The translations under genes were made by a program, and so were the position numbers. This document shows, one piece after another, positions 29,696-63,994 of a DNA stretch of 64,000 bases. Source of the stretch: Candidatus Gottesmanbacteria bacterium RIFCSPHIGHO2_01_FULL_40_15 (GTDB lineage Bacteria; Patescibacteriota; Microgenomatia; 2-02-FULL-39-11); contig MFJF01000015.1 in assembly GCA_001779115.1 (NCBI GenBank), forward strand, positions 86,491 to 150,490, read 5' to 3'. How positions within the stretch are numbered: position 1 is the stretch's first letter; each line of letters opens with the position of its first letter. A model generated the notes under the pieces. It did not search any database. It was given only the letters and a program-made list of their open reading frames with translations, and was not told the DNA's origin.

Positions 29696-29908
29696 ATGAA
29701 ATTTATAAAACTGATGTTATTTCTTATCAGCATAAGTTTGATTTTTCCTTCAAAATCACACGCTTATATTGATCCCGGTACTGGCAGTTATCTTTTTCAG
29801 ATAATTGCAGCATCCCTTATTACCGTGCTTCTATCCGCCAGAACATTTCTGAAATTTGTCCGCAATATCCTTGGTCGGATAACTTCTTTCAAAAAAAGCA
29901 AGAAATGA
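29696..29908 (+). CDS. Small (70 aa) two-helix membrane protein, translationally coupled to the downstream kinase-methyltransferase
   Basis: Hydrophobic N-terminal helix, a central 'YIDPGTGSYLFQIIAASLITVLL' segment and a basic C-terminus. Its stop overlaps the next start (ATGA). Confidence 0.3.
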   Translation: MKFIKLMLFLISISLIFPSKSHAYIDPGTGSYLFQIIAASLITVLLSARTFLKFVRNILGRITSFKKSKK

Positions 29909-38311: not shown

Positions 38312-39613
38312 ATGGTTACAATGGATAAAATAGTCAGTTTGTGTAAAAGAAGAGGATTTATATTACAAAGCAGCGAGATTTACGGCGGATTGGGATCTTT
38401 CTACGACTACGGTCACTACGGCGTACTTCTTAAAAATAATATTAAAAATCTCTGGTGGCGTGATTATGTTCTTAACAGAAGGGATATTTTCGGTCTTGAT
38501 TCTTCCCTGATACTTCATCCCGATGTTTGGAAAGCTTCCGGCCATCTTTCCTCTTTTACCGATCCTTTAGTTGAATGCAAAAAATGCCGTCGGAGGTTTC
38601 GGGCAGATGATTTGGAGGATGAAAACAGAAAAAACAATATTTGTCCGTCATGTTCCGGAGCATTAACCGGGGAAAAAAGATTTAATCTGATGTTTAAGAC
38701 TTTTATAGGTCCCGTTGAAGATTCAACTTCAGTTGTTTATCTCCGCCCGGAAACCGCCCAGGGAATTTTTGTTAACTTTAAAAATTTCCTATCAACATAC
38801 GGTATGAAAGTGCCGTTCGGAATAGCCCAGATAGGCAAAGCTTTCCGCAATGAAATCACGCCGGGTAATTTTATATTCCGGACACGTGAATTTGAACAGA
38901 TGGAAATTGAATATTTTGTAAAACCGCAAACAGATGAAATTTGGCATAAAAAATGGATCAGAGAAAGATTCGACTGGTATCTTAAATATTCAATTAATGT
39001 GAAAAATCTGCGGTTAAGGGAACACACACCGGACGAATTATCCCATTATTCCAAAGGCACGACTGATATTGAATACCGATTTCCCTGGGGTTGGGGTGAA
39101 CTGGAAGGAATTGCCAACAGGACGGATTTTGATCTTAAAGCCCACCAGAAATACTCAGGAAAAGATCTTACTTATTTTGATGAGGAAAAAAAGAAGAGTT
39201 ATCATCCGTTCGTCATAGAACCATCAGCCGGAGCCGACCGCTCGGTATTGGCTTTTCTGATAGACAGTTTTACCGAAGATGAAAAAAGAATATATCTTAA
39301 GTTGCACCCCTTGATTGCGCCCGTCAAAGCTGCCGTATTTCCTTTGGTATCAAATAAGAAGGAATTGGTTGAATATGCCCGCGATATTTACAGAATGCTT
39401 CAAAATGTATTTATTGTTCACTTTGATGACCGAGGTAATATCGGTAAAAGATACTATTCCCAGGATGAAATAGGCACTCCCTTTTGTATCACTGTTGATT
39501 ATGATACACTTCAGAAAGATTCGGTAACCGTCAGGAACAGGGATACTACCCGGCAGGACAGAGTAAAAAAAGAAAATCTGGTCAGTTTCCTTACGGAGAA
39601 AATATATTCCTAG
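38312..39613 (+). CDS. glyQS: Glycine--tRNA ligase, alpha2 (GlyQS) type
   Basis: 'RRGFILQSSEIYGGLGSFYDYGHYGVLLKNNI...W' N-terminus and class-II motifs (FRNEITPGNFIFRTREFEQMEIEYF). The Zn-binding Cys cluster CKKCRRRF...CPSC insertion is present. Confidence 0.8.
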   Translation: MVTMDKIVSLCKRRGFILQSSEIYGGLGSFYDYGHYGVLLKNNIKNLWWRDYVLNRRDIFGLDSSLILHPDVWKASGHLSSFTDPLVECKKCRRRFRADDLEDENRKNNICPSCSGALTGEKRFNLMFKTFIGPVEDSTSVVYLRPETAQGIFVNFKNFLSTYGMKVPFGIAQIGKAFRNEITPGNFIFRTREFEQMEIEYFVKPQTDEIWHKKWIRERFDWYLKYSINVKNLRLREHTPDELSHYSKGTTDIEYRFPWGWGELEGIANRTDFDLKAHQKYSGKDLTYFDEEKKKSYHPFVIEPSAGADRSVLAFLIDSFTEDEKRIYLKLHPLIAPVKAAVFPLVSNKKELVEYARDIYRMLQNVFIVHFDDRGNIGKRYYSQDEIGTPFCITVDYDTLQKDSVTVRNRDTTRQDRVKKENLVSFLTEKIYS

Positions 39614-43585: not shown

Positions 43586-44374
43586 TTACCGTACGACCAT
43601 TTCTTTCGGAAGCATTGCTTTGATGGATTCTGCAATTTGAAGTGAAACGTCTTTTTTATCGGAAGAGCGGGGAATGAGCGGTTCTCCGATTTGAAGATAA
43701 GGCATCCCGTTTAAGCTTACTGCAATGGCTACAGGCAAAACTTTACCTCCGAATGTTTCAACGGTATCAATTGCAATTTGTCCTGCACCGTGTCGGAGGT
43801 CTGAATCTTTTTTTGTTTGATTTATATTTTCGCCCCAATCTCCTTCCCCGGCCAGAGCTACAATTCCGCCCCGGGCAAGTTGAGAACGAATAGCTGAATT
43901 TACCTTCTTTCTGCCTTCCCGATAATCCGGTCGAAGCTTATTATTGGGAACAAGAAGAATGCGGGTTGTCTCGTCGTCATTAATATTATAAATATAAGCC
44001 AGTTTTTTCATGAAAGATATGCTCCATGGGAAATAAGCATTTTTTTTTGAAGGAATCTCGCCGGCGGCAATTAGAGTAATGTCTTTTCTTCCTGCTATAT
44101 CATCATCCGAGAGAATCGCCAGCAATGTAAAAATCCCTTCTACCAGCACAGGAGTTACCGGATGATTAAAAACAATAAAAACGGAAGTGTTGCCGATATG
44201 ATTCAGATTTTCCTGTCCGAAGATTTGAATTTTATTTTTCATCCGGATTCGGTTTGAATCCTCATACAGATCCCGTTTATTTCCCATATAAAGGGAGTAG
44301 ATTATTTCTCCGGCAAGCTTGGGAGGAAATCGGCTGATTGTTCTGCTAATATCCAACTCCGGTCGCAATCCCAT
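43586..44374 (-). CDS. Hypothetical protein (weak resemblance to lysophospholipid acyltransferase fold)
   Basis: 262 aa. 'VFIVFNHPV' and 'ALAGEGDWG' loosely resemble acyltransferase motifs I and III but are not canonical. Same strand and composition as the TPR gene. Confidence 0.3.
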   Translation of the reverse strand: MGLRPELDISRTISRFPPKLAGEIIYSLYMGNKRDLYEDSNRIRMKNKIQIFGQENLNHIGNTSVFIVFNHPVTPVLVEGIFTLLAILSDDDIAGRKDITLIAAGEIPSKKNAYFPWSISFMKKLAYIYNINDDETTRILLVPNNKLRPDYREGRKKVNSAIRSQLARGGIVALAGEGDWGENINQTKKDSDLRHGAGQIAIDTVETFGGKVLPVAIAVSLNGMPYLQIGEPLIPRSSDKKDVSLQIAESIKAMLPKEMVVR

Positions 44375-47958: not shown

Positions 47959-49212
47959 ATGCAATTCCTTAAGAATCTGGCCCATTTGTTAACAGCAATT
48001 CTTGCCTGTTTCTATTACCGCTTTCCCGGCCGTTCTTTGACGGTTGTCGGAATTACCGGTACAGACGGAAAAACAACCACAAGCTCACTGGTTTATCATA
48101 TTTTGGCATCAGCCGGATTGCCGGTAGCGCTGGTAACAACTGTCGGAGCAAATATCGGTAATAAATTCTATGACACCGGCTTTCATGTCACGACTCCTTC
48201 TCCTTTCAGTTTGCAGCGTCTGATGCGGCGCGCGGTTAAATCAGGCAGCCGGTATCTGGTACTGGAAGTCACGTCGCACGCCCTTGATCAGTTCCGGACA
48301 TTGGGTACCCCGATAAATATTGCTTTGATAACCAATATTTCCCATGAGCATCTGGATTACCACCGGACTTTTAACAGTTATAAAAATGCCAAAGCAAAAA
48401 TACTTCGCGGCGGGGGACTTGCCGTTTTAAACAGGGATGATAAAAATTATGATTACTTAAGGAAAAGGACAAAACGGAAAATTATCTCCTTTTCTCTTAA
48501 AGACAAGGCAGATTATACATATAAAGATTTCCCGTTCCGTTCGCTTTTATTCGGTAATTTTAACAAATACAATATTTTGGCAGCCTTTGCGGTTTCCGAT
48601 CTTTTAGGTGTGGAGGAAAAAACCATATACGGGGCAATAGCCGGATTTGAAGGTGTTCCCGGCCGGTTGGAAAATATCAAAAATAAACGCCGGATAAATA
48701 TTTTTATTGACTTTGCCCATAAACCCAATGCCCTCAAAGAAGTTATTTTAGCGGTGCGGACTAAAACTGAAGGTAAAACTATAGTCGTATTCGGTTGCGC
48801 CGGGTTAAGGGACAGGCTAAAAAGGCCTATTATGGGAGAAATTGCCGCGACGCACGCGGATTATACGGTGATTACCGCCGAAGATCCCCGGACTGAGGAT
48901 GTCAGGGTCATTATAAATCAGATAGCTGAAGGGTGTTTAAGAAAAAATGTCAAAGAGATGAAAAAAATTCAATATGGAAGAAAAAACCGACCCGAAGGGA
49001 AAATTCATTTTAAAATTCCCGATCGCCAGGAAGCTATTAATTTTGCCATCAGAGATCTGGCTAAACCGGGTGATACGGTAATAGTTGCCGGCAAAGGACA
49101 TGAAAAGTCCATGTGTTACGGTAAAATTGAATATCCCTGGGATGAAAAAAAGGCTATTTTAAAAGCTCTCTATGGTCCAGTCAAAAATTCTCAAAAAAAT
49201 ACCCTCGGTTGA
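47959..49212 (+). CDS. murE: Mur ligase, MurE-like (UDP-MurNAc-L-Ala-D-Glu:diamino acid ligase), lacking the usual N-terminal domain
   Basis: 'VVGITGTDGKTTT' P-loop, 'LEVTSHAL', 'NISHEHLDYH', 'VFGCAGLRDRLKRPIMGEIA' and 'AGKGHE' match MurE-specific blocks. The 417 aa protein has only about 30 aa before the P-loop. Confidence 0.65.
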   Translation: MQFLKNLAHLLTAILACFYYRFPGRSLTVVGITGTDGKTTTSSLVYHILASAGLPVALVTTVGANIGNKFYDTGFHVTTPSPFSLQRLMRRAVKSGSRYLVLEVTSHALDQFRTLGTPINIALITNISHEHLDYHRTFNSYKNAKAKILRGGGLAVLNRDDKNYDYLRKRTKRKIISFSLKDKADYTYKDFPFRSLLFGNFNKYNILAAFAVSDLLGVEEKTIYGAIAGFEGVPGRLENIKNKRRINIFIDFAHKPNALKEVILAVRTKTEGKTIVVFGCAGLRDRLKRPIMGEIAATHADYTVITAEDPRTEDVRVIINQIAEGCLRKNVKEMKKIQYGRKNRPEGKIHFKIPDRQEAINFAIRDLAKPGDTVIVAGKGHEKSMCYGKIEYPWDEKKAILKALYGPVKNSQKNTLG

Positions 49213-49834
49213 GCATTATTTCCTCAACCGCCGTGATTATTCCGCCAGGCGTTATAATGGTCTTATAAAAAAAAGCGTCTCACCGGAACAGGTCCACTCC
49301 AATAAAGTAGTCCGGATGGAAAAAAATTTCAGAAATAAAATATATACCGGTGCCGACGGCTTGATTGCCGATTTTCCGGTGAGTTTACTGATTAAAACAG
49401 CCGATTGCCTGCCGGTATTTATATGTAATCGGAACCCGCAAATGATAATTGCCCTGCACACCGGTTGGCGGGGTTTATTAAAAGGTATTATAGATAATAT
49501 AAAATTTTCAAAACTTGATAAGTCCGGACTGTCAGGCACGTTTGCCGCCATCGGACCTCATATCCGTTCCTGCTGCTACAAAGTGGAAAATGACGTCTTC
49601 GGAAAATTCAAAAAGTTGTTGCCTTCCACGGTTGGCTTTTTCCGCAACATAAACAATGATAAATATCTTGATTTGTCGGCTGTTGCTATCTTTCAGTTGG
49701 TGAGTGTCGGTCTTGCGCCGGAAAATATTGACGATGTTGCCGTTTGTACCTCATGCGATCCCGCTTACTATTCGTACCGCCGGGATAAAACCGATTACCG
49801 GAATTTCAATTTAATTAAACTTAAAAATGGTTAA
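49172..49834 (+). CDS. pgeF: YfiH/PgeF-family (DUF152) purine-nucleoside phosphorylase / peptidoglycan editing factor
   Basis: 'QVHSNKVV' and 'IKTADCLPVF' match the conserved His and Cys motifs of the YfiH/PgeF family. The true start is probably an internal Met downstream of the murE stop. Confidence 0.6.
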   Translation: MVQSKILKKIPSVEHYFLNRRDYSARRYNGLIKKSVSPEQVHSNKVVRMEKNFRNKIYTGADGLIADFPVSLLIKTADCLPVFICNRNPQMIIALHTGWRGLLKGIIDNIKFSKLDKSGLSGTFAAIGPHIRSCCYKVENDVFGKFKKLLPSTVGFFRNINNDKYLDLSAVAIFQLVSVGLAPENIDDVAVCTSCDPAYYSYRRDKTDYRNFNLIKLKNG

Positions 49835-53609: not shown

Positions 53610-54935
53610 ATGACCGAAGATGTAATTGCCGTTATTTTAGCAGCCGGAGATTCCGGTAGGCTTTGGCCGGTTAAAGATAAACTTAATCTGTATTTTGGGA
53701 ATATCACTCTGTTAAACCATTCGGTGCGTCAGTTAAAAAAAGCCGGAATCAGCCGCTTTATAATAGTCACCGGTAAAAAAAACAGACAGAATATTCAAAG
53801 TTTAATCCCGGAAAAAAATGCCGGAATTTCATTAAATCTGATTGTCCAGGAAAATAATTTGGGCATGGCCGGAGCTATTCTTGCGGCAAAAAATCTTATA
53901 AAGGACAATAAAATTATCGTTGTTGGCCCCTCCGATATTGTCGAGGATTATCTATTTTCAGATTTTAACCGGCTTTTAGCTGGCGACCCGGAAGGTATTT
54001 TTGTCGGCAAAAAGTTGGATTCTTACTCTCCATTGGGTTTTTACGATATTGACGCCGGTACGATTGCCGGTGTCAGGGAAAAACCCGGTCCCAGCAAGGC
54101 AAAAGGTAAACCGGCAGCCATTATACTGGATTATTACCGTGACAGTAATAAACTTTTAACGGCAATTTCGGCAGTCAGATCAACAACTGATGATATTTAT
54201 GAGAAAGCCAAAGACATACTGGTTAGAGACGGCCTTGTGATAAAGCTTTTAAACTATAACGGTTATTGGGGTTATATAAAATATCCCTGGCACATTCTTG
54301 AAGTTGCTTCCTATTTCCTGAATAAATTTCCCGACAAAAAAAATGAAGCGGTTCTCCATGAAACCGTTACAATACGGGGGCCTGTATTTATCGAAGATAA
54401 TGTTACCATCCTGGAAAATGTCAAAATTCTGGGGCCGGTATTCATCGGAAAAAGCAGTCTTATCGGACAAAATTGCCTTATACGGGAATCGGTAATCGGA
54501 GAAGGCAATATTATCGGATTCGGTTCGGAAATAACCAGATCCTATCTGGGATCAAACTGCTGGTTTCATCAAAATTATATTGGAGATTCGGTTGTTTTGG
54601 ATAATACTTCTTTCGGATCAGGTGCGGTAATTGCCAATTACAGGTTGGACGGGGGGAATATCATTTCTGAGGTTGAAGGCAAGAAAATTGACACCAACAG
54701 GACCAAGTTGGGAGCAGTTGTCGGCAGGAATGTCCGAATAGGTGTTAATTCTTCGGTTATGCCCGGAGTAAAAATCGGAGAGAATTCCTTTGTCGGTAGC
54801 GGTGTCGTCTTAAATAGTGATCTGCCTGAAAACAAATATATCGAAGTCCGAAAGGATTCTTACCGGGTTTTAAATAACAAGGTTAATCTAAAGACCGGCG
54901 CTATGGATAAAAATCTCGGAAATTTGAAATTTTGA
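53610..54935 (+). CDS. Bifunctional sugar-1-phosphate nucleotidylyltransferase + hexapeptide acyltransferase (GlmU-like)
   Basis: N-terminal 'IAVILAAGDSGRLWPV' NTP-transferase P-loop and C-terminal left-handed beta-helix repeats (VKILGPVFIGKSSLIGQNCLIRESVIGEGNIIG). It lies immediately upstream of glmS. Confidence 0.5.
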   Translation: MTEDVIAVILAAGDSGRLWPVKDKLNLYFGNITLLNHSVRQLKKAGISRFIIVTGKKNRQNIQSLIPEKNAGISLNLIVQENNLGMAGAILAAKNLIKDNKIIVVGPSDIVEDYLFSDFNRLLAGDPEGIFVGKKLDSYSPLGFYDIDAGTIAGVREKPGPSKAKGKPAAIILDYYRDSNKLLTAISAVRSTTDDIYEKAKDILVRDGLVIKLLNYNGYWGYIKYPWHILEVASYFLNKFPDKKNEAVLHETVTIRGPVFIEDNVTILENVKILGPVFIGKSSLIGQNCLIRESVIGEGNIIGFGSEITRSYLGSNCWFHQNYIGDSVVLDNTSFGSGAVIANYRLDGGNIISEVEGKKIDTNRTKLGAVVGRNVRIGVNSSVMPGVKIGENSFVGSGVVLNSDLPENKYIEVRKDSYRVLNNKVNLKTGAMDKNLGNLKF

Positions 54936-56795: not shown

Positions 56796-57527
56796 ATGAA
56801 TAAACCGTACATATTAATACTGCACGGCTGGAACCTGTCCGGAAAAAGATTTACTCCGCTGGTAAAATTTTTAAATCGCATGAACTTCAGGGCTTTTTCA
56901 CCTGATCTGCCCGGTTTTGGCAGGACACAAAAGCCGAAAAAGTTTTACATGCTTGATGACTATTGCCGTTTTGTCAATTCCTTTTTGGACTTAAAAAAGA
57001 TTGACAGCGTCGTCCTCGTCGGTCATTCTTTCGGAGGCCGGATCGCCATTAAAATGGCCGCCCGTTATCCTCAAAAAATTAAGGCAGTTATTCTGACCGG
57101 TACACCGGGGCTTTTGCCCGTAAAAAAGGTTAAAGTCCTTTTTTTCCTGGGACTGGCTAAAGCCGGCCGGTTGATTTTCTTACTGCCTTTCCTGTCAGTC
57201 CTTAAAAAAATTTTTCAGAAACTGCTTTATCGCCTGTCAGGTGCTGCTGATTACTATCATACAGACCAGCGGATGCGCCTGACTTTCCAAAATATCGTCA
57301 GGGAAGATCTCCGCGGATATTTGACTGAAATAGGAAAGCCTGTTTTCCTCTTGTGGGGAGGACGTGACAGGATTGTTTCACCAAAAATTGCCGTTGAAAT
57401 GAAAAACCTGGTAAAAGGCAGTGAACTGCAAATCGTCGATACACAGGGGCATGATTTTCCCTATATTAATCCGCAAATCTTCAGCAAAAAAATTGCACAG
57501 TTTCTGAAAAAGATACATGCTGTATAA
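56796..57527 (+). CDS. Alpha/beta-hydrolase fold protein
   Basis: 'ILHGWNLSGKRF' and the nucleophile elbow 'LVGHSFGGRIA'. Confidence 0.6.
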   Translation: MNKPYILILHGWNLSGKRFTPLVKFLNRMNFRAFSPDLPGFGRTQKPKKFYMLDDYCRFVNSFLDLKKIDSVVLVGHSFGGRIAIKMAARYPQKIKAVILTGTPGLLPVKKVKVLFFLGLAKAGRLIFLLPFLSVLKKIFQKLLYRLSGAADYYHTDQRMRLTFQNIVREDLRGYLTEIGKPVFLLWGGRDRIVSPKIAVEMKNLVKGSELQIVDTQGHDFPYINPQIFSKKIAQFLKKIHAV

Positions 57528-59133
57528 TTTTGTTCTCATTGTTTTTACCGCCGCGTTCATTTTTAGGACAGTCAAAACCCTTTTTTTCCATATTTTTCTG
57601 TGGCAGTTGAAAGAATTCCGTCCGGACAGAATTATTGCGCATCTGAAAACAGATTACGGCAAAAAGCTGCTGGTTAATCCTTTAAATATTATCAAATGGA
57701 TACTTTTTATTGTTATTTACTCAATTTCGCTTATAAATATAAACCTGGTGGAAGTTCCCTTCAGTTTCCACATTATTATTTATTCTTTTTATTTATTTTG
57801 GTTTATTTGGCTGATTGAAACTATTAGTATTCCTTTTGCCGTACTGCGATTAAGATTTAAATATCCCGTACCCACGGTAAAAAGCTTTTCAGTTCTGGTT
57901 TTTTCCTCAGTACTTTTACTTTTTCCCTTTATAAGTAACCCGCTTGAAGGCATGCTGCTCCTGGGCCCTCTTTTTGACCGGTTATTGCCCCTTTTTGTTT
58001 TTATTGCTGTTGTTCTGGTAAATATTCCGGCTCAAATTTATAAAGGACTGATTGTTTTTCTGGCAGCCAGAAAAATTAATAATTTCACTGGTGTGAGTAA
58101 AATCGCTATCACCGGCAGTTACGGCAAGACGTCCACCAAGGAATTTTTAGCGGCTCTGTTGATGTCAAAATACAAAACGCTTAAAACACCCGGAAGTTTC
58201 AATACCGACTATTCTGTTGCCGCATTTATTAACAGTAAATTAACTCCGGCTGATGATTTTCTCATTGTTGAAATGGGCGCTTATACCCGCGGAGAGATCA
58301 AAAGACTATGCCGGATTGTAAAGCCTGAGGCTGGTATCATTACCGGCATCGGATCACAGCATCTGGAGCTGTTCGGTTCCGTTTCCAATCTGATTTCGGC
58401 TAAGGCTGAGCTGATTACTGCTTTGCCCCAAAACGGTATAATTGTAATTAATGTTAACAACGTGCATTCAGGGAAAATTGAAAAAATTGCCAAAGAAAGA
58501 GGACTCCGGCTTATTACTGCGGATATAAAACGGGATGTCAGGGACGTAAAAATCGGAAAAAATTATTTATCTTTCAGCCTTAAATTAAATAAAAAGATTC
58601 TTCCTCTGAAGTTTAATCTGGCAGGAAAAAACAATTTAGAAAATCTGTTGTTGGCAATAAAAACAGCTTACGCATTTGGCATGTCTGAGTATGAAATTAA
58701 AAAAGCATCCCGGAATATCCGGCCTCCTCTCAAAACAATGAACGTCATAAAACAGACTTCCGATATAACCCTTATTGATGATACATTCAATGTCAATTAC
58801 GAGGGTATAATATCATCCGCCGCTTACATGAAGCTTTATAAAGGACTCCGGGTGCTTGTGTTAAATCCGATAATCGAATTGGGAGAGATGGCTCAGAATC
58901 TTCACTTTAAAATCGGAAAAGAATTAGGCCATGTTTGTGATTATTTGCTGGTAACAAACCGCAATTATTTTAACAATCTTTCGGAAGGCCTAAAAAAAGG
59001 CAACCGTAAAAATACCGTAATTCTTCCGGCTGATAAATTGTCGATATCGCAGGTCCGCCGGAAATTATTTTCCGATTCAGTAGTAATTTTTTCCGGAAAG
59101 GAATCGGCTAAATGGATCAAATATTTCAGTTAG
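57517..59133 (+). CDS. murF: MurF-like Mur ligase (UDP-MurNAc-tripeptide:D-Ala-D-Ala ligase) with an N-terminal ~180-aa polytopic membrane domain
   Basis: Residues 1-~180 form 4-5 predicted TM helices. Residues ~190 onward carry 'KIAITGSYGKTSTKEFLAALL' (MurF P-loop), 'IVEMGA' and a C-terminal Mur ligase domain. Confidence 0.65.
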   Translation: MLYNFVLIVFTAAFIFRTVKTLFFHIFLWQLKEFRPDRIIAHLKTDYGKKLLVNPLNIIKWILFIVIYSISLININLVEVPFSFHIIIYSFYLFWFIWLIETISIPFAVLRLRFKYPVPTVKSFSVLVFSSVLLLFPFISNPLEGMLLLGPLFDRLLPLFVFIAVVLVNIPAQIYKGLIVFLAARKINNFTGVSKIAITGSYGKTSTKEFLAALLMSKYKTLKTPGSFNTDYSVAAFINSKLTPADDFLIVEMGAYTRGEIKRLCRIVKPEAGIITGIGSQHLELFGSVSNLISAKAELITALPQNGIIVINVNNVHSGKIEKIAKERGLRLITADIKRDVRDVKIGKNYLSFSLKLNKKILPLKFNLAGKNNLENLLLAIKTAYAFGMSEYEIKKASRNIRPPLKTMNVIKQTSDITLIDDTFNVNYEGIISSAAYMKLYKGLRVLVLNPIIELGEMAQNLHFKIGKELGHVCDYLLVTNRNYFNNLSEGLKKGNRKNTVILPADKLSISQVRRKLFSDSVVIFSGKESAKWIKYFS

Positions 59134-59139
59134 TATCTT

Positions 59140-60396
59140 ATGTTCAAGCGCCCAATCGCCATCGGTTTATCCCCCAATAATCAGGCTGATGATCTAAAGT
59201 ACGTATATAAGGCATTATTCAGCCCCAACTGTTTTAAATCCGGTAAATTTACCGGTCTGCTGTCATCCTGGTTCATGGATTATCTGAAATCCGATAATGT
59301 GTTTTTTTTCAATAGCGGCAGATCGGCCCTTTTCTGTCTTTTGAAGAGCTTATCAATCGGTCCGGGAGATGAAGTTATTGTCCAGGCATTTACTTGTGTA
59401 GCCGTACCTGATCCCGTTATCTGGGTCGGTGCCAGACCCGTTTTTACCGATATCGACGCCAGTTTAAATATCAAAATAGAATCATTGGAAAAAGCTGTCA
59501 ACAATAAAACGAAGGCAATAATTGTTCAACATACTTTCGGAATTCCTGCAAATATTAACAAGATCAAAAAAATTGCTCAAAAATACGGTATTTACGTGAT
59601 AGAAGACTGCGCGCACTCCTTGGGAGCGGAATTGGATAATCGGAAAATCGGCGCATTGGCCGATGCTGCCTTTTTTAGTTTCGGCAGAGATAAGGTTGTT
59701 TCTTCAGTTTACGGCGGAGCCGCCGTAATTTATAATAATGATAAGGCAAAGCGTATACTTTCCCGCCTTCACCGCAGTCTTCCGAAACCGTCCCTCTTTT
59801 GGATTTTCCGGCAGCTTCTGCACCCGCTTGCTTTTTCAGTGATTCTGCCTTTTTATAATGTACATATCGGTAAAGTTATTCTGTTTCTGCTATTTAAGAT
59901 GAAATTGCTGCAAAAGCCCGTCGAGAAATGTGAACTTATTGCCGGAAAACCGGATAATTTTCCGGCGCAAATGCCGGATGTATTGGCCGGACTTCTCTTA
60001 AGCCAGCTGTTAAAACTGACGAAGTTCAATAAAAATAGAAAAAAAATCGCCGCCAGATATTTTGCCCGGTTAAAAAATTCCCCTGATTTCGGTCTGCCTC
60101 CGGAAATAAAAAATGCGGTATATCTGAGATTTAATATATTGACGGAGGACTCCGCAGATCTTTTGATTTATTTTAAAAAAAGGAAAATACTCCTCGGTAA
60201 CTGGTATAAAAATATTATTGATCCGAAAAACGTGTCTTTCAAAACTTTAGGGTTTAATCCGGATAAATTTATAAACGCACGAAAATTTGCCAGGTTAAGT
60301 CTAAATCTGCCGACTTATCCTAATATGTCCGTTGAAGACGCTGATTTAATTGTCAATCTTTTAAATGAATATGCAGATAAAAAACATCAACGATAA
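59140..60396 (+). CDS. DegT/DnrJ/EryC1/StrS-family aminotransferase (copy 3), embedded in the dcw cluster
   Basis: 'GPGDEVIVQAFTCVAVPDPVIWVGARPVFTDID', 'IIVQHTFG' and 'IEDCAHSLGAE' with a Lys-containing 'FSFGRDK' region. Confidence 0.75.
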   Translation: MFKRPIAIGLSPNNQADDLKYVYKALFSPNCFKSGKFTGLLSSWFMDYLKSDNVFFFNSGRSALFCLLKSLSIGPGDEVIVQAFTCVAVPDPVIWVGARPVFTDIDASLNIKIESLEKAVNNKTKAIIVQHTFGIPANINKIKKIAQKYGIYVIEDCAHSLGAELDNRKIGALADAAFFSFGRDKVVSSVYGGAAVIYNNDKAKRILSRLHRSLPKPSLFWIFRQLLHPLAFSVILPFYNVHIGKVILFLLFKMKLLQKPVEKCELIAGKPDNFPAQMPDVLAGLLLSQLLKLTKFNKNRKKIAARYFARLKNSPDFGLPPEIKNAVYLRFNILTEDSADLLIYFKKRKILLGNWYKNIIDPKNVSFKTLGFNPDKFINARKFARLSLNLPTYPNMSVEDADLIVNLLNEYADKKHQR

Positions 60397-61387
60397 AAAA
60401 TTATGGGAGGAGTTAATTTCCCGGTACTCTCCCCAAAGCTTCTTTCAATCCTGGACATGGGGTGAATCTGTCAGGTTGACTGGTCCAAATACTCAAGTCT
60501 GGCGCATAGCCCTGGTAACCGGTGATGGGGAAATTGCCGGTCTTTCCCAGATTGTCAAAGTTGTTGCCCGGCGCGGTATTCACCTGCATCTGCGTCACGG
60601 TCCCGTGCTGAAAAATTGGAAAAGGAAAAGTTTTCACTTTTTGTTGGAATATATTAAGAGACTCGCCTTGAGAGAAAAAGCCGCTTTTATCCGTTTCGGG
60701 CCTTTGATTGAAAATACTCCGGATCATCTAGCTTTATTTAAGAAAGCGGGTTTTGTTGATGCTCCAATTCACCGAATGAACGGAGAATTCTGTTGGGTGC
60801 TTGATCTGGATAAAAATGCGGATGAATTACTTAAAAATATGCGTAAAACTACCAGATATTTGATAAAAAAAGCAACAAATATGGGTGTTATCATCCGTCG
60901 GTCGGAAAGTCCGGGCGACATGGCCATTTTTAATAAATTATATGAAATTACAGCTAAAAGGCACGGTTTTGTCAGGCACAGGGAAGTCAAATGGGAGTTT
61001 GAAAAGTTTGTTAAAGAAAAAAAAGCTTTGCTGTTTTTAGGGGAATTTGAAGGGGAAATTAAATCCGCCGCCGTTATAATTTTTTATAACCATCAGGCAA
61101 TCTATCATCACAGCGCTTCAATCGAACAAAAGATACCTGTTAATTACCTCCTCCAGTGGCATGTTATTCTGGAAGCCAAAAAAAGAAACATGAAAATATA
61201 TAATTTTTGGGGAATAGCCCCGGATGAAAATCCCCGCCATCCCTGGACCAATCTCACTATTTTCAAAAAAGGTTTTGGCGGAAGAACGGTTGAATATATT
61301 CATGCCCAGGATCTGCCTGTGAACATTTTGGGCTATACGAAATCTTATTTATTGGATTATGGAAGAAAACTTCTGAAAGGTTACTGA
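60365..61387 (+). CDS. FemAB-family (aminoacyl-tRNA-dependent peptidoglycan branch peptidyltransferase) / GNAT-fold protein
   Basis: 340 aa. 'FFQSWTWGE...' N-terminus and a duplicated GNAT-like layout with 'AAVIIFYNHQAIYHHSAS' and 'YNFWGI' typical of the FemAB/MurM family. Confidence 0.6.
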   Translation: MNMQIKNINDKKLWEELISRYSPQSFFQSWTWGESVRLTGPNTQVWRIALVTGDGEIAGLSQIVKVVARRGIHLHLRHGPVLKNWKRKSFHFLLEYIKRLALREKAAFIRFGPLIENTPDHLALFKKAGFVDAPIHRMNGEFCWVLDLDKNADELLKNMRKTTRYLIKKATNMGVIIRRSESPGDMAIFNKLYEITAKRHGFVRHREVKWEFEKFVKEKKALLFLGEFEGEIKSAAVIIFYNHQAIYHHSASIEQKIPVNYLLQWHVILEAKKRNMKIYNFWGIAPDENPRHPWTNLTIFKKGFGGRTVEYIHAQDLPVNILGYTKSYLLDYGRKLLKGY

Positions 61388-61436
61388 AGTAACGTTAAAA
61401 GAAGCGGAAATAAGCTATAATGGCAATACAATCAGT

Positions 61437-61814
61437 ATGGAGCGCTTGAAAAAACATCATATTTCATTCAAAAACGCCTGGTCCGGAGTCCATTGGTCTT
61501 TTACCAGCCAACCCAATTTTATGATCCATCTCATTTTTTCAATAACCGCAGTATTTCTGGGGATCGTACTTGGGATTTCAAAAATCGAATGGTTAATTAT
61601 TATCCTTTCCATAGTTTTTGGATTGGGAGCGGAGATGATTAACACATCAATTGAAGCCATGTGTAATTTAATAACAACCGATTGGAAAAAAGAGGCTAAA
61701 ATTGTCAAGGATGTTTCGGCCGGCATGATGCTGATTATTGCCGTGGGTACATTAATTATCGGACTTATTATTTTTATTCCGAAACTGTTATTAATTCTGC
61801 CCGATTTCTTCTGA
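61437..61814 (+). CDS. dgkA: Diacylglycerol kinase / undecaprenol kinase (DgkA family)
   Basis: 125 aa with three TM helices and 'LGAEMINTSIEAMCNLIT' matching the DgkA 'E..NTAIE...D' active-site signature. Confidence 0.7.
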   Translation: MERLKKHHISFKNAWSGVHWSFTSQPNFMIHLIFSITAVFLGIVLGISKIEWLIIILSIVFGLGAEMINTSIEAMCNLITTDWKKEAKIVKDVSAGMMLIIAVGTLIIGLIIFIPKLLLILPDFF

Positions 61815-61815
61815 T

Positions 61816-62853
61816 ATGGGATTTATTCTGGGTATTTTACTGCTGTCATTTATATTGAATTCTCTTTCAATTATTCCGTTTATAAATCTTCTGTACCGTT
61901 ATAAGTTCAGACGCCAGAACCAGACAACGGTTGATGCATGGGATAAGCCTACTCCAATATTTGATATGTACCACCGTAAAAAAGCCGGCATTCCCATAGG
62001 CGCGGGGTTTCTTTTGATATTGTCAACAACCCTGATTTTCCTGTTTACGTTTCCCGTTATGTATTTTTTTTGGATTCCGTTTACTTCTGTTTATTCCAAT
62101 ATCCAATCGGAGCTCAAAATTCTGCTGACGACTTTTATATCTTTCGGTCTGATAGGGCTTTTTGACGATATTAAAAAGATCTTTTTCGGTAAAAGGGAAA
62201 AATTTTTCGGCTTAAGATTAAGACATAAACTAGTCCTTGAAATAATTCTTTCCCTATTAATCTCATATTGGCTTTACTCAGAGCTGAAGATTAATATTAT
62301 CAACGTTCCATTTCTGGGTGTTATCGATATGGGTGTTTTTTTTGTTCTCTTTTCATCATTTGTCATAATCTCATTTTCCAATGCTTTCAATATCACCGAC
62401 GGATTGGACGGATTAGCCTCGGGGGTATTAATGATATCCCTTATTGCTTTTTGGGTAATATCAAGTTCAATTCTTGATACTCCCTTGACACTGTTTATTG
62501 CCATATGGTTAGGTGGACTTTTGGCTTTCCTCTACTTTAATATATATCCTGCCAGAATTTTCTTGGGTGATGTCGGCGCTTTATCATTTGGGGCGACCTT
62601 AGCTGTTATCGCCCTTATTCTCGGAAAGTCCTTTTTACTGCTTATAATTGGAGGTGTTTTTGTAGCGGAAATTTTCACGTCCCTTATTCAGCTTTTAAGC
62701 AAAAAATACACCGGTAAAAAAATCATGAAAGTAGCGCCTCTTCATCTTTACCTGCAGCATAAAGGTTGGCACGAAACTACGATTGTCTTTCGGGGATGGT
62801 TGGCCACGATTGCATTGGCCGTATTCGGATTGTGGCTGGCTTTTATAAGCTGA
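61816..62853 (+). CDS. mraY: Phospho-N-acetylmuramoyl-pentapeptide transferase
   Basis: 'NAFNITDGLDGLASGV' and 'FLGDVGALSFG' MraY signatures. Polytopic. Confidence 0.85.
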   Translation: MGFILGILLLSFILNSLSIIPFINLLYRYKFRRQNQTTVDAWDKPTPIFDMYHRKKAGIPIGAGFLLILSTTLIFLFTFPVMYFFWIPFTSVYSNIQSELKILLTTFISFGLIGLFDDIKKIFFGKREKFFGLRLRHKLVLEIILSLLISYWLYSELKINIINVPFLGVIDMGVFFVLFSSFVIISFSNAFNITDGLDGLASGVLMISLIAFWVISSSILDTPLTLFIAIWLGGLLAFLYFNIYPARIFLGDVGALSFGATLAVIALILGKSFLLLIIGGVFVAEIFTSLIQLLSKKYTGKKIMKVAPLHLYLQHKGWHETTIVFRGWLATIALAVFGLWLAFIS

Positions 62854-62881
62854 CGTAAAATGTTCCAGTTTTTCTGTACTC

Positions 62882-63994
62882 ATGAAAAAATCCAAAAATC
62901 TGACTTACCTTACGCAGAAAAAAAAATCTGATTTCTGGTTATTGCTTCTGACTTTCGCTTTTACGTTTTTTGGAATTCTTATGATATTTGAAGCATCCAA
63001 TGTGGCCGCATTTGTATCTTTCAATGATAAATTTCATTTTGTTAAAGACCAATTTCTTTGGGCAGTCCTGGGTTTTATTCTTTTGATAATATTTTCCAAA
63101 ATCCATTACCGGAAGCTTTTCGTTATGGCTGTCCCCATGCTGACAGTTACTATTATTGCCCTTATCGCTGTGCTGATTCCCGGCATCGGAATAAAAGCTC
63201 TGGGTGCCAGGCGCTGGATAAATCTGAGCTTTTTTTCCTTTCAACCCTCGGAATTGGCAAAAATCAGTCTGATTCTGTATTTATCTGCCTGGTTTACCAA
63301 TAAGGAAAAAGGCAGGTTTTTTCACTTTTTATTTCTGACGGGTCTGATTGTCGGTCTGGTTATTCTTCAGCCGGATTTAGGTACGGCAGTAATTTTAACT
63401 GCCATATTTCTGGCTGTTTATTTTATCTCCAATGCGCCTCTTTTTCATTTTCTCATTTTATTGCCCGGGGCGATTTTATCCGTAATTTTTCTGGCTCTTA
63501 TTTCTCCTTACCGTTACCAAAGACTGATGACGTTTTTTGATCCCAACCGGGATCCTCTTGGAGCTTCATATCATATCAGACAGATATTAATCTCTTTGGG
63601 CTCCGGAGGATTCATCGGATTGGGACTTGGCGCATCCCGCCAAAAATATCAATATCTTCCGGAAGCAACAACAGATTCTATATTCGCCATAATCGGCGAG
63701 GAGGCGGGATTCCTGGGAACATCTTTCATTATTTTATTATTTATCGTCTTTCTATACCGCATTTATCTGATAGTGAAACATTCTCCTGATAATTACGCCC
63801 GGCTTCTTTCATCAGGGATATTGTCGCTGATGGCCTTTCAAATTATCATTAATCTCGGTGCCATGGTTGCCATATTTCCCTTAACGGGTGTTCCCTTGCC
63901 TTTTTTCTCTTATGGCGGTTCCAATCTTATCGTGACTTTATTTTCCGTAGGCATACTTCTTAATATCAGCAAATTTCGGGTCAAAACCAAATAA
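62882..63994 (+). CDS. ftsW: SEDS-family peptidoglycan glycosyltransferase (FtsW/RodA)
   Basis: 370 aa, 10 TM helices, 'LQPDLGTAVIL' and C-terminal 'TGVPLPFFSYGGSNLI' SEDS motifs. It lies directly after mraY. Confidence 0.8.
   Translation: MKKSKNLTYLTQKKKSDFWLLLLTFAFTFFGILMIFEASNVAAFVSFNDKFHFVKDQFLWAVLGFILLIIFSKIHYRKLFVMAVPMLTVTIIALIAVLIPGIGIKALGARRWINLSFFSFQPSELAKISLILYLSAWFTNKEKGRFFHFLFLTGLIVGLVILQPDLGTAVILTAIFLAVYFISNAPLFHFLILLPGAILSVIFLALISPYRYQRLMTFFDPNRDPLGASYHIRQILISLGSGGFIGLGLGASRQKYQYLPEATTDSIFAIIGEEAGFLGTSFIILLFIVFLYRIYLIVKHSPDNYARLLSSGILSLMAFQIIINLGAMVAIFPLTGVPLPFFSYGGSNLIVTLFSVGILLNISKFRVKTK

What the first reader, a model, noticed from the sequence alone, without database searches (positions are those of the whole stretch)
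57517..63994. dcw cluster carries extra DegT aminotransferase + FemAB-family + DgkA genes between a membrane-anchored murF and mraY
The canonical murF-mraY junction is interrupted by three genes. The first is a third DegT-family sugar aminotransferase (59140-60396), the second a FemAB-family gene (60365-61387) and the third dgkA (61437-61814). FemAB enzymes add tRNA-delivered amino acids to the peptide stem of lipid II. DegT enzymes aminate UDP-4-keto sugars. Their placement with murF and mraY hints at a non-canonical peptidoglycan precursor (a branched stem peptide, and possibly an amino-sugar modification). DgkA homologues act as undecaprenol kinases, which fits next to MraY as C55-P supply. 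MurF itself carries an unusual N-terminal ~180-aa polytopic domain.
Basis: partly seen in the sequence, partly recalled or inferred. Interest (0 to 1): 0.6.

Follow-up and report, generated by a model that had tools for sequence, protein, structure and literature searches.

The report
Conserved CPR cell-wall precursor gene module
Inside the cell-division gene cluster of a tiny 'candidate phyla radiation' bacterium sits a four-gene block (a hydrolase, a membrane-embedded MurF ligase, a vitamin-B6 enzyme and a tRNA-using Fem transferase) that recurs across hundreds of related species, is undescribed in the papers I could search, and probably makes a non-standard cell-wall building block.

Summary
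All six ORFs are at the stated coordinates and pass the family profiles: MurF-type ligase, DegT, FemAB, DgkA, MraY, FtsW. The MurF N-terminal membrane domain is real, not a frameshift artefact. The third DegT is not a duplicate of the two canonical copies in the window.

The conserved unit is a four-gene module: α/β-hydrolase (56796-57527), a MurF-type ligase lacking the UDP-binding domain 1 (here replaced by five membrane helices), a remodelled DegT-family PLP enzyme, and a FemX-like transferase. Among 71 assessable species-level CPR genomes, 67 have the hydrolase, 69 the DegT-like gene and 64 a MurF-like gene. In 7 genomes DegT and FemAB are fused into one protein. DgkA is a lineage-level add-on, mainly in Gottesmanbacteria.

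The membrane domain occurs in about 1,100 protein clusters; in the 150 best hits listed it is always N-terminal, in 510-585 aa proteins or shorter membrane-domain-only ones, and Pfam has no model for it. MurE in the same cluster also lacks domain 1.

Best reading: a lineage-wide module that tailors the peptidoglycan precursor at the membrane face. The chemistry of the PLP enzyme and the hydrolase is unresolved. My literature searches found no description of it.

The parts
56796..57527 (+). α/β-hydrolase (243 aa, GHSFG nucleophile motif), first gene of the conserved module. Its stop overlaps the murF start by 11 nt.
Evidence: PF00561 6.3e-32. Only generic esterase/lipase matches in PDB. Present upstream in 67 of 71 assessable species loci, with a median gap of -4 nt to the MurF-like gene.
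57517..58086 (+). N-terminal membrane domain of MurF (residues 1-190). Five TM helices with conserved cytoplasmic-loop motifs LWQLKEYRxDR (28-38), G48, K60 and PxFTxK (117-122). It takes the place of Mur-ligase domain 1.
   Evidence: AlphaFold2 pLDDT 91.9. Invariant columns. The domain profile finds 1,098 representative clusters among 1.84 billion proteins; in the 150 best hits listed it is always N-terminal, mostly in 510-585 aa proteins. No Pfam model matches it.
58087..59133 (+). MurF-type ATP-dependent ligase core (middle and C-terminal domains).
   Evidence: Aligns to E. coli MurF 1gg4 residues 100-406 only. Foldseek best hits are MurF structures, with 4qf5 at rmsd 2.5 Å over about 370 columns, ahead of MurE and MurC. 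P-loop G200-K204, E252, H282, N376, D421 and ELG...H463 are invariant; the 'GR' arginine is not conserved. TIGR01143 scores 209 bits, below the 288.6 cutoff, because domain 1 is absent.
59140..60396 (+). Divergent DegT-family PLP enzyme (418 aa) with a conserved helical insertion of about 47 aa (residues ~218-268).
   Evidence: PF01041 6.2e-64. K185 and D156 are invariant; W221, Q225, H228, P229, Y239, G244 and K245 in the insertion are invariant. AlphaFold2 pLDDT 94.3. Foldseek top hits are sugar aminotransferases at 22-28% identity. The canonical N-x-R...LQAA motif is replaced. Fused to FemAB in 7 species genomes.
60365..61387 (+). FemX-like (FemABX family) aminoacyl-tRNA-dependent transferase, 340 aa, without the coiled-coil insertion of FemA/FemB.
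   Evidence: PF02388 3.6e-31. A profile of the CPR family hits S. aureus FemX 6snr at 4.7e-22 and W. viridescens FemX at 5e-14. About 50% identity across CPR, and at least 562 species genomes encode a relative.
61437..61814 (+). DgkA-family small membrane lipid kinase (125 aa). A lineage-level accessory gene, probably an undecaprenol kinase.
   Evidence: PF01219 9.9e-29. Present between fem and mraY in 60 of 80 loci, absent in Levyibacteria and the Parcubacteria-type loci. The undecaprenol kinase role of DgkA is described in PMC5723303.
61816..62853 (+). MraY (phospho-MurNAc-pentapeptide translocase), immediate downstream neighbour.
   Evidence: TIGR00445 6.6e-52, PF00953 1.1e-32.
62882..63994 (+). 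FtsW (SEDS family). There is no murD between mraY and ftsW in this genome.
   Evidence: TIGR02614 347 bits, above the cutoff. The downstream continuation is murG, an ftsQ-like gene, ftsA and ftsZ.
47959..49212 (+). MurE (417 aa), also lacking Mur-ligase domain 1 and carrying the DAP-type Arg motif AEDPRTED. Context for the MurF anomaly.
   Evidence: NF001126 matches profile positions 88-482 of 486, and TIGR01085 scores 354 bits. Only 52 nt separate it from ftsI, so there is no room for a domain 1. Motif.

Best explanation
This is a lineage-wide module of the Candidate Phyla Radiation that completes and tailors the peptidoglycan precursor at the inner face of the membrane. It has four components.

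1. **MurF-type ligase.** Its UDP-binding domain 1 has been replaced by a dedicated five-helix membrane domain. It most likely remains the D-Ala-D-Ala-adding enzyme, working at the membrane surface next to MraY.
2. **FemX-like enzyme.** It uses an aminoacyl-tRNA to put a branch residue on the free amino group of the DAP-type residue at stem position 3.
3. **DegT-like PLP enzyme.** It is an obligate partner of the Fem enzyme and acts on the same substrate. It either creates the amine that Fem acylates, or modifies the free α-amino end of the residue Fem has just added (epimerisation or transamination).
4. **α/β-hydrolase.** It is translationally coupled to the module. Its role is unknown; editing or turnover is my guess.

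DgkA is a Gottesmanbacteria-level addition that supplies undecaprenyl phosphate.

**Shown:** gene identities, domain architectures, conservation, gene fusion, and intact catalytic residues.
**Inferred:** all substrates and the order of the reactions.
For: **Synteny**
- The hydrolase, TM-MurF, DegT-like and FemAB-like genes are adjacent in Gottesman-, Levyi-, Woese- and Nealsonbacteria and other Patescibacteria.
- Of 71 assessable species loci, 67 have the hydrolase, 69 DegT-like, 64 MurF-like, and 59 all four. Median gaps of -4 nt indicate translational coupling.
- The block stays together when it lies outside the dcw cluster, next to PBP2, LysRS, SerRS and FtsQ.

**Fusion**
- Single 718-751 aa ORFs cover both DegT and FemAB in 7 species genomes. 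Pfam confirms both domains in one of them.

**Linked ligase**
- In those fusion genomes a soluble, domain-1-less MurF-like ligase and the hydrolase sit directly upstream.

**MurF identity**
- MurF is the best family by sequence and by structure, and the catalytic residues are conserved.
- It sits at the canonical murF position, and no other MurF is found in the window or in the 10 kb downstream.

**Membrane domain**
- Within the 150 best hits listed it was seen only at the N-terminus of MurF-length proteins or of shorter membrane-domain-only proteins, and it carries invariant polar and basic loop residues.

**Fem and DegT**
- The Fem family profile matches FemX enzymes, and the FKK motif is retained. 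FemX mechanism: PMC12945691.
- The DegT-like enzyme keeps the PLP Lys and Asp but has a remodelled substrate region.
Against: - No biochemical or muropeptide data exist for any of these organisms in the searchable literature.
- No keto-substrate-forming enzyme accompanies the DegT-like gene, so its substrate is a guess.
- Fem branches are classically on L-Lys, whereas MurE here looks DAP-type.
- The Mur-ligase 'GR' arginine is not conserved in TM-MurF, and the NCBIfam MurF cutoff is not reached. A changed substrate for the ligase cannot be excluded.
- Six Gottesmanbacteria-like loci keep hydrolase, DegT and Fem but have no MurF between them, and one Nealsonbacteria locus lacks DegT. The four parts are therefore not strictly inseparable.
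- I could not check whether these genomes carry a second, canonical MurF, or Ddl and Alr.
Confidence: 0.5

Rival explanations
1. **Completion of the stem peptide on the lipid carrier.** The domain-1-less ligases work after MraY. MraY transfers a truncated phospho-MurNAc-peptide to undecaprenyl phosphate. TM-MurF then adds D-Ala-D-Ala to the lipid-linked intermediate, and MurE may also act there. The membrane domain binds the undecaprenyl-pyrophosphate end in place of UDP.
For: - Domain 1, the UDP-binding domain, is missing from both MurF and MurE, while MurC is full length.
- MurT, the one characterised Mur-ligase homologue that acts on lipid II, also lacks domain 1.
[quoted passage not shown] In TM-MurF a membrane domain sits at that boundary.
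- The cytoplasmic loops carry invariant or near-invariant basic and polar residues (K32, R38, K60, K122, Q30, T120) that could bind a pyrophosphate.
Against: - Kaiser- and Nomurabacteria have a soluble domain-1-less MurF-like ligase with no membrane domain, and MurE has no membrane anchor. Loss of domain 1 therefore does not by itself imply a lipid substrate.
- A membrane tether that simply channels UDP-MurNAc-pentapeptide to MraY explains the data equally well.
- Nothing is known about MraY specificity here.
Confidence: 0.2
2. **Aminoacylated amino sugar.** The DegT-like enzyme aminates a keto-sugar, either nucleotide- or lipid-linked. The Fem-like enzyme then N-acylates that new amino group with an amino acid from aminoacyl-tRNA. 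The product is a modified glycan unit for the wall or for a wall-attached polymer. The block sits in the dcw cluster for co-regulation.
For: - An aminotransferase followed by an aminoacyl transfer onto the new amine is the simplest chemical reading of a DegT(N-terminal)-Fem(C-terminal) fusion.
- The DhpH C-terminal domain condenses Leu-tRNA with the amine of L-Ala(P), and other FemX-like enzymes (VlmA, Orf11) also acylate small-molecule amines (PMC12945691).
- From my own knowledge, not checked here: the DhpH N-terminal domain is a PLP enzyme that makes that amine.
- Every solved close structural neighbour of the DegT-like model is a sugar aminotransferase.
- glmS, glmU, murA and murB lie directly upstream.
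Against: - There is no dehydratase or oxidoreductase to make a keto-sugar in the module or in 64 kb of window.
- The canonical substrate motif of sugar aminotransferases is replaced.
- This reading does not explain the constant linkage with a MurF-type ligase.
Confidence: 0.15
3. **Alternative supply of D-amino acids.** The PLP enzyme, the Fem-like enzyme and the hydrolase together provide the D-configured residue or dipeptide that the MurF-like ligase adds, starting from L-aminoacyl-tRNA. This would replace alanine racemase and D-Ala-D-Ala ligase, in the same way that MurD2/MurL replaces glutamate racemase.
For: - MurF is fused or linked to D-Ala supply enzymes in other bacteria: NCBIfam has models for MurF-alanine racemase and MurC-Ddl fusions.
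- One CPR relative has a MurD-type ligase next to a MurL epimerase, so on-precursor epimerisation occurs in this radiation. MurD2/MurL pathway: PMC8788868.
- No ddl or alr is found in the 64-kb window or in 10 kb downstream.
- aaRS genes (LysRS, SerRS) lie upstream in the Parcubacteria-type loci, immediately upstream of the hydrolase in most.
Against: - PLP chemistry can only reach a residue with a free α-amine, so making D-Ala-D-Ala this way needs several unprecedented steps.
- ddl and alr may simply lie elsewhere in the genome, which I could not check.
- aaRS genes are housekeeping genes, and in compact genomes their adjacency may be incidental.
Confidence: 0.08
4. **Incidental neighbours.** The genes are unrelated housekeeping or polysaccharide genes that happen to lie in a compact dcw cluster, and the MurF membrane domain is an annotation or assembly artefact.
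For: CPR genomes are compact, and many unrelated genes share operons. Promoter-like and terminator-like matches in the region are at background and say nothing either way.
Against: - The block is conserved in three different genomic contexts across CPR classes, with gene fusion and 4-nt overlaps.
- The membrane domain is conserved in about 1,100 clusters and modelled with high confidence as continuous with the ligase.
- The DegT copy has no nucleotide similarity to the other two copies.
Confidence: 0.02

Closest known systems
MurF (UDP-MurNAc-tripeptide:D-Ala-D-Ala ligase), e.g. E. coli 1gg4, A. baumannii 4qf5
   Same: The middle and C-terminal domains match by sequence (E 9e-34) and by structure (rmsd 2.5 Å). 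The P-loop, Mg-binding Glu, His, N...N and DDxxNxN motifs are kept. The gene sits at the canonical dcw position upstream of mraY.
   Different: The N-terminal UDP-binding domain 1 is absent and replaced by a conserved five-helix membrane domain with its own motifs. The 'GR' arginine is not conserved. The score is below the NCBIfam family cutoff.
MurT of the MurT/GatD lipid II amidotransferase (S. aureus)
   Same: It is a Mur-ligase homologue that lacks domain 1 and works on a membrane-bound (lipid II) substrate. Its closest structural relatives are MurF enzymes (PMC6113224).
   Different: MurT has no membrane domain, carries a zinc ribbon, and needs the GatD glutaminase. No GatD is present here, and the sequence is MurF-like rather than MurT-like.
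FemX of Weissella viridescens and FemX/FmhB of S. aureus (FemABX family)
   Same: Same family by Pfam and by profile-to-PDB search. Its size (340 aa, no coiled coil) resembles FemX of W. viridescens. The FKK motif aligns with S. aureus FemX. In W. viridescens FemX acts between MurF and MraY, which matches the gene order here.
   Different: Only about 25% identity. It is always partnered with, and sometimes fused to, a DegT-family PLP enzyme and an α/β-hydrolase. The acceptor is probably a DAP-type stem rather than a Lys-type stem. The amino-acid donor is unknown.
DhpH of dehydrophos biosynthesis
   Same: Its C-terminal FemX-like domain uses aminoacyl-tRNA to acylate a small-molecule amine (PMC12945691). 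From my own knowledge, not checked here, its N-terminal domain is a PLP enzyme that makes that amine. That would make it the only precedent I know for a PLP enzyme fused to a Fem-like transferase.
   Different: It belongs to a secondary-metabolite pathway in Streptomyces. I did not compare its PLP domain family with DegT. It has no link to Mur ligases or to the dcw cluster.
DegT/DnrJ/EryC1/StrS sugar aminotransferases (QdtB, ArnB, PseC, perosamine synthase)
   Same: Same fold (Foldseek E about 1e-26, TM-score 0.72-0.85). The PLP lysine and aspartate are conserved.
   Different: It has a conserved helical insertion of about 47 aa. The N-x-R...LQAA motif is replaced by P-x-K/Q...NALA. No keto-sugar-forming partner enzyme is nearby. 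It is linked to Fem and MurF instead of to glycosyltransferases.
MurD2/MurL alternative peptidoglycan pathway (Xanthomonas)
   Same: It is another case where a canonical early step of stem-peptide synthesis is replaced by chemistry on the precursor. A MurD-type ligase lies next to a MurL homologue beside the module in one CPR relative (L088).
   Different: The enzymes are different (an ATP-dependent epimerase, not a PLP or Fem enzyme). It is not present in this window.

Membership tests
Mur ligase family / MurF | ATP-binding P-loop GxxGKT/S and the invariant Mg-binding Glu, His, N..N and D..N.N residues of Mur ligases | tested here: met
   G200, S201, G203, K204, E252, H282, N376, D421 and N427 are invariant or nearly so in 38 homologues.
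Mur ligase family / MurF | Three-domain architecture with an N-terminal UDP-MurNAc-binding domain 1 | tested here: not met
   TIGR01143 aligns from profile position 64, and E. coli MurF aligns from residue 100. Residues 1-190 form five TM helices instead.
Mur ligase family / MurF | Conserved Arg of the 'GR' motif at the start of domain 3 | tested here: not met
   The positions aligned to E. coli 'PGRL' (404-407) are variable in the TM-MurF family. The soluble MurF-like ligase of Kaiser-/Nomurabacteria keeps PGR. The role of this Arg is from my own knowledge of Mur-ligase invariant residues.
Mur ligase family / MurF | Closer to MurF than to MurC, MurD, MurE or MurT by sequence and structure | tested here: met
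   MurF scores 209 bits, against at most 67 bits for MurC, MurD or MurE; the MurE/MurF fusion model scored 182.5 bits through its MurF half. Foldseek MurF E 8.5e-25 versus MurE/MurC about 1e-15.
Mur ligase family / MurF | Reaches the curated NCBIfam cutoff for MurF | tested here: not met
   209.4 bits against a cutoff of 288.6. The shortfall is consistent with the missing domain 1.
Mur ligase family / MurF | Adds D-Ala-D-Ala to MurNAc-tripeptide | not testable with these tools
   Needs an enzyme assay.
FemABX aminoacyl-tRNA transferases | Match to the FemAB profile above the gathering score, across both GNAT-like halves | tested here: met
   PF02388 scores 108.8 bits against a cutoff of 24, with three matched stretches, plus PF13480. 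The family profile aligns to S. aureus FemX residues 8-230 and 292-398.
FemABX aminoacyl-tRNA transferases | Catalytic Lys (K305 of FemX from W. viridescens) preceded by Phe | tested here: inconclusive
   Invariant F300-K301 (FKKGFGG) aligns with the FKK of S. aureus FemX. The HMMER alignment to the W. viridescens FemX stops at residue 300, just before F304-K305. The K305 role is from PMC12945691.
FemABX aminoacyl-tRNA transferases | Uses aminoacyl-tRNA as donor and a peptidoglycan precursor amine as acceptor | not testable with these tools
   Only context is available: the dcw position, and LysRS/SerRS upstream in some lineages.
DegT/DnrJ/EryC1/StrS aminotransferases | Fold-type I PLP enzyme with the Schiff-base Lys in the SF...K motif and the pyridine-N Asp | tested here: met
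   S180, F181 and K185, and D156, are invariant. PF01041 scores 216.9 bits. Fold confirmed.
DegT/DnrJ/EryC1/StrS aminotransferases | Canonical C-terminal-half motif G-x-N-x-R-(M/L)...LQAA, seen in sugar aminotransferases | tested here: not met
   It is replaced by F-P-x-(K/Q)-Y-P-N-A-L-A. Both canonical paralogues in the same window carry R...LQAA (only DegT2 also has the N), and QdtB has N-x-R.
DegT/DnrJ/EryC1/StrS aminotransferases | Accompanied by an enzyme that makes the keto-sugar substrate (4,6-dehydratase or oxidoreductase) | tested here: not met
   None in the module in 80 loci. None found by Pfam among the ORFs of at least 110 aa that were scanned across the 64-kb window.
Prokaryotic DgkA / undecaprenol kinase | DAGK_prokar profile match and a small protein of about 120 aa with three TM helices | tested here: met
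   PF01219 scores 99.6 bits over profile positions 2-102 of 102. The hydropathy scan shows hydrophobic stretches spanning residues 26-72 and 89-125, which were not resolved into individual helices.
Prokaryotic DgkA / undecaprenol kinase | Undecaprenol rather than diacylglycerol as substrate | not testable with these tools
   No NCBIfam model matched. The inference rests only on its position next to mraY and on the literature.
MurT/GatD lipid II amidotransferase | MurT-specific sequence family and a GatD glutaminase partner | tested here: not met
   The MurT model is not among the NCBIfam hits for this protein. No GATase-like partner is in the block.

The most novel reading that the evidence does not exclude
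In a large part of the Candidate Phyla Radiation, the textbook split between cytoplasmic and membrane steps of peptidoglycan synthesis is redrawn. Ligases that have lost the UDP-binding domain finish the stem peptide on the undecaprenyl carrier: MurE, and a MurF fused to a dedicated lipid-carrier-binding membrane domain. A PLP enzyme working as one unit with a tRNA-dependent Fem transferase installs a non-canonical branch, such as an epimerised or otherwise PLP-modified residue.
Probability: 0.15. Interest if true: 0.9.

Novelty: new variant of a known kind. Interest (0 to 1): 0.62.

Why it matters
Peptidoglycan precursor synthesis is one of the best-conserved and most drug-targeted pathways in bacteria, and MurF is described everywhere as a soluble three-domain enzyme.

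This window shows a different layout in a radiation that holds a large share of bacterial diversity. MurF is a membrane protein without its nucleotide-binding domain. MurE has lost that domain too. Two enzymes never before linked to the dcw core, a remodelled DegT PLP enzyme and an α/β-hydrolase, are inherited together with a FemX-like transferase, and in some genomes the PLP enzyme and the transferase are fused.

If the module does what its parts suggest, CPR cell walls carry a precursor chemistry not yet seen. That bears on how these small episymbionts build walls from scavenged L-amino acids, on their susceptibility to antibiotics, and on the evolution of the Mur ligases.

The genes are small and well defined, so the question can be tested directly by heterologous expression and in vitro assays.

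Tried and rejected
- **Frameshift or fused-ORF artefact for the MurF N-terminus: rejected.** The ORF is continuous, an identical protein is deposited, and homologues are full length down to about 32% identity.
- **Third DegT as a duplicate or misassembly: rejected.** It shares 28-32% protein identity and no nucleotide similarity with the other two.
- **Membrane domain in other architectures: not found.** An exhaustive profile search found it, in the 150 best hits listed, only at the N-terminus of MurF-length proteins or of short membrane-domain-only proteins. BLAST found no standalone copy in the degT-fem gaps of loci without TM-MurF; those gaps hold an MBL-fold hydrolase and a Phage_holin_4_2-family protein instead.
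- **α/β-hydrolase:** only generic esterase, lipase and dehalogenase matches, with no functional clue.
- **Literature:** ten full-text searches (CPR/Patescibacteria with MurF, FemAB, DegT, Mur ligase, racemase/Ddl, muropeptide, FemX) found no description of this module.
- **Keto-sugar source for DegT:** searched the window and found none.
- **RNA and expression signals:** no Rfam family and no tRNA in the window. Promoter and terminator scans are at background.
- **Whole-genome inventories:** I could not obtain them, so I could not check for ddl, alr, murI, murD or a second murF.

Full report
**What is there.** Profile searches confirm each assignment:

| Coordinates | Assignment | Key score |
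|---|---|---|
| 57517-59133 | MurF-type ligase | Mur_ligase_M 1.2e-36; TIGR01143 murF 8.9e-62 |
| 59140-60396 | DegT-family PLP enzyme | PF01041 6.2e-64 |
| 60365-61387 | FemAB family | PF02388 3.6e-31 |
| 61437-61814 | Prokaryotic DgkA | PF01219 9.9e-29 |
| 61816-62853 | MraY | TIGR00445 6.6e-52 |
| 62882-63994 | FtsW | TIGR02614 8.9e-104 |

Upstream the window holds a long dcw-type cluster: mraZ, rsmH, ftsI, murE, pgeF, murC, murB, murA, a GlmU-like gene, glmS and an α/β-hydrolase. Downstream of the window come murG, an ftsQ-like gene, ftsA and ftsZ. The genes from the hydrolase to ftsW overlap or lie within 50 nt of each other. Promoter and terminator matches are at background, apart from a candidate promoter before mraZ. 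The organism is a Candidatus Gottesmanbacteria MAG from the Microgenomates branch of the CPR; its MurF is 100% identical to a deposited protein.

**The MurF anomaly.** The MurF profile and E. coli MurF (1gg4) align only from the start of the middle domain: profile position 64 and residue 100 respectively. Residues 1-190 are hydrophobic. An AlphaFold2 model built from 38 homologues (pLDDT 91.9) shows five membrane helices, the last of which (143-189) runs straight into the ligase core. The membrane domain therefore replaces the UDP-binding domain 1 instead of being added to it.

- The ligase core is MurF-like in structure. A. baumannii MurF matches at rmsd 2.5 Å, clearly ahead of MurE and MurC.
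- It keeps the P-loop, the Mg-binding Glu, His282, the N..N motif, DDTFNxN and ELG...H. The 'GR' arginine, normally invariant in Mur ligases, is not conserved.
- The architecture is conserved at 97-100% coverage down to about 32% identity in Gottesman-, Levyi- and Nealsonbacteria and other Patescibacteria.
- The membrane domain has its own invariant motifs: LWQLKEYRxDR, G48, K60 and PxFTxK.
- A profile of the domain, searched against 1.84 billion representative proteins, finds 1,098 clusters. In the 150 best hits listed it is always N-terminal, mostly in 510-585 aa proteins, and the shorter hits consist of the membrane domain alone and may be fragments. Pfam has no model for it.
- MurE in the same cluster (417 aa) also lacks domain 1. 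There are only 52 nt between ftsI and murE, so there is no room for one. MurC is full length.

**The real unit.** I examined neighbourhoods of TM-MurF homologues and 80 loci from one genome per GTDB species retrieved with a FemAB-like profile. These loci show a four-gene block: α/β-hydrolase, MurF-like ligase, DegT-like, FemAB-like.

In the 71 loci with enough upstream sequence to judge:

| Component | Loci |
|---|---|
| α/β-hydrolase | 67 |
| DegT-like | 69 (62 separate, 7 fused) |
| MurF-like | 64 (58 membrane type, 6 soluble) |
| All four | 59 |

The median hydrolase→MurF and MurF→DegT gaps are -4 nt.

Three arrangements occur:

1. **Inside the dcw cluster before mraY**, as here (Microgenomates).
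2. **Outside dcw**, as PBP2, LysRS, SerRS, hydrolase, TM-MurF, DegT, FemAB, FtsQ (Parcubacteria-type).
3. **Fusion type:** a soluble 420-aa MurF-like ligase with its P-loop at residue 36, no domain 1 and no TM segment, followed by the hydrolase and a single 718-751 aa DegT::FemAB fusion protein (Kaiser- and Nomurabacteria and others).

DgkA lies between fem and mraY in 60 of 80 loci but is absent from arrangements 2 and 3 and from Levyibacteria, so it is accessory. Some loci lack MurF inside the block, and one lacks DegT. In a sub-clade an MBL-fold hydrolase and a small four-TM protein are inserted between degT and fem.

**The DegT-like and Fem-like proteins.** The DegT-like protein is conserved at about 50% identity and folds as a sugar-aminotransferase-like PLP enzyme (pLDDT 94.3). 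Its top PDB neighbours are ArnB, perosamine synthase, QdtB and PseC at 22-28% identity. The PLP lysine (K185) and Asp156 are invariant.

I compared it with the two canonical DegT paralogues in the same window and with QdtB. It has a helical insertion of about 47 residues containing seven invariant residues. The canonical N-x-R...LQAA motif is replaced by P-x-K/Q...NALA. No dehydratase or oxidoreductase that could supply a keto-sugar is in the module or the window.

The FemAB-like protein is also about 50% identical across the radiation. Its family profile matches S. aureus FemX (4.7e-22) and W. viridescens FemX (5e-14). Its invariant FKKGFGG aligns with the FKK of S. aureus FemX. It lacks the coiled coil of FemA/FemB.

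MurE carries AEDPRTED, and relatives carry ED(P/Y)RTE. It scores best as the DAP-adding enzyme. From my own knowledge of the MurE DNPR motif, this indicates a DAP-type residue at stem position 3.

**Interpretation.** Conservation in three contexts, 4-nt overlaps and a natural fusion show that these genes work together and with the wall-precursor pathway.

The most economical mechanism has three parts. The ligase is still the D-Ala-D-Ala-adding enzyme, now membrane-embedded next to MraY. The Fem-like enzyme adds a tRNA-borne residue to the free amine of residue 3, as FemX of W. viridescens does between MurF and MraY. The PLP enzyme acts on the same substrate, either before or after Fem. The hydrolase is unassigned. 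All substrates are inferred.

A more radical variant follows from the MurT precedent. In MurE and MurF the substrate pyrophosphate lies at the boundary between domain 1 and the middle domain, and a lipid II-using ligase has no domain 1 because it would clash with the membrane (PMC6113224). TM-MurF places a membrane domain at that boundary, so it may act on the undecaprenyl-linked tripeptide. The soluble domain-1-less ligase in arrangement 3 weakens this argument.

Two further rivals cannot be excluded:

- An aminoacylated amino sugar made by DegT followed by Fem. The closest precedent is DhpH: PMC12945691 describes its Fem-like C-terminal domain, and I know of the PLP N-terminal domain only from memory.
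- A tRNA- and PLP-based supply of D-residues for MurF, by analogy with MurD2/MurL (PMC8788868). A MurD-type ligase lies next to a MurL homologue beside the module in one relative.

**Novelty.** Ten full-text searches found no description of a membrane-integral, domain-1-less MurF, of a DegT-Fem partnership or fusion, or of this module in CPR. Public annotation simply names the parts, for example 'UDP-N-acetylmuramoyl-tripeptide--D-alanyl-D-alanine ligase', 'peptidoglycan bridge formation glycyltransferase FemA/FemB family protein', or 'hypothetical protein'. All parts belong to known families, so I rate this a new variant of a known kind and not a new category.

Noticed in passing
window 47959-49212: MurE is only 417 aa and lacks the N-terminal UDP-binding domain: the match starts at profile position 88 of 486, and only 52 nt separate it from ftsI. 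It keeps the DAP-type arginine motif (AEDPRTED). MurC next door is full length.
   Followed up: partly
L088 11464-13716 (minus strand), next to the module in a CPR relative: A MurD-type ligase (TIGR01087, 348 bits) lies beside a MurL epimerase homologue (Pfam MurL_N and MurL_epimerase_C). This suggests the MurD2/MurL route to D-Glu exists in Patescibacteria. The review PMC8788868 lists it only for Xanthomonadaceae, a few Alphaproteobacteria and rare actinomycetes.
   Followed up: partly
window 61816-63994 and L087 11116-15427: No murD lies between mraY and ftsW. No murD, ddl or alr is found anywhere in the 64-kb window or in 10 kb downstream. In 25 of 80 relatives a MurD-type ligase does follow mraY.
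   Followed up: partly
L005, L078, L082, L089, L090 (upstream of the hydrolase): Lysyl-tRNA synthetase and seryl-tRNA synthetase lie directly upstream of the module on the same strand in the Parcubacteria-type loci. SerRS overlaps the hydrolase start by 4 nt in L005. This is a possible hint at the aminoacyl donor, or just housekeeping synteny.
   Followed up: partly
window 38312-39613: Glycyl-tRNA synthetase (NF003211, 627 bits) lies about 5 kb upstream of mraZ, after recO.
   Followed up: no
L056 8016-9001 and 33 or 16 other loci respectively: In a Gottesmanbacteria-related sub-clade, an MBL-fold hydrolase (PF00753, 34 loci) and a 112-aa four-TM Phage_holin_4_2-family protein (PF04020, 17 loci) are inserted between degT and fem. 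Both are absent from this window.
   Followed up: partly
L071, L072, L082, L085: A second, divergent Fem paralogue (329 aa where complete, 29% identity in L072) sits just upstream of TM-MurF. This would fit a branch of two residues in those lineages.
   Followed up: no
window 1-37662: A large glycan-assembly locus. It holds two canonical DegT genes, DUF2142 and DUF2079 membrane proteins, PMT_2-type glycosyltransferases, a 1030-aa Wzy_C + PMT_2 fusion (23363-26455), many GT2/GT4 genes, four methyltransferases, a sulfatase-family protein, Bac_transf and DUF4012. Four long ORFs have no Pfam match (17429-18820, 29905-31317, 31310-32854, 43586-44374).
   Followed up: partly
window 49172-49834: A Cu-oxidase_4 / PgeF-family gene (a peptidoglycan editing factor, from my own knowledge) lies between murE and murC and overlaps murE by 41 nt. 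The same position is conserved in relatives.
   Followed up: no
window 53610-54935: The GlmU-like gene best matches the archaeal-type bifunctional sugar-1-phosphate nucleotidylyltransferase/acetyltransferase (TIGR03992, 240 bits, below the cutoff of 292) rather than bacterial GlmU (85 bits).
   Followed up: no
record titles of L009, L013, L017, L019 and many other loci: Many GTDB representative records carrying this Patescibacteria-type cluster are titled 'uncultured Gammaproteobacteria bacterium'. One TM-MurF homologue is named as from a 'Bathyarchaeia archaeon'. These look like mislabelled MAGs.
   Followed up: no
window 1-64000: No tRNA gene and no Rfam family at gathering threshold in 64 kb. 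Nearly all genes are on the + strand.
   Followed up: yes
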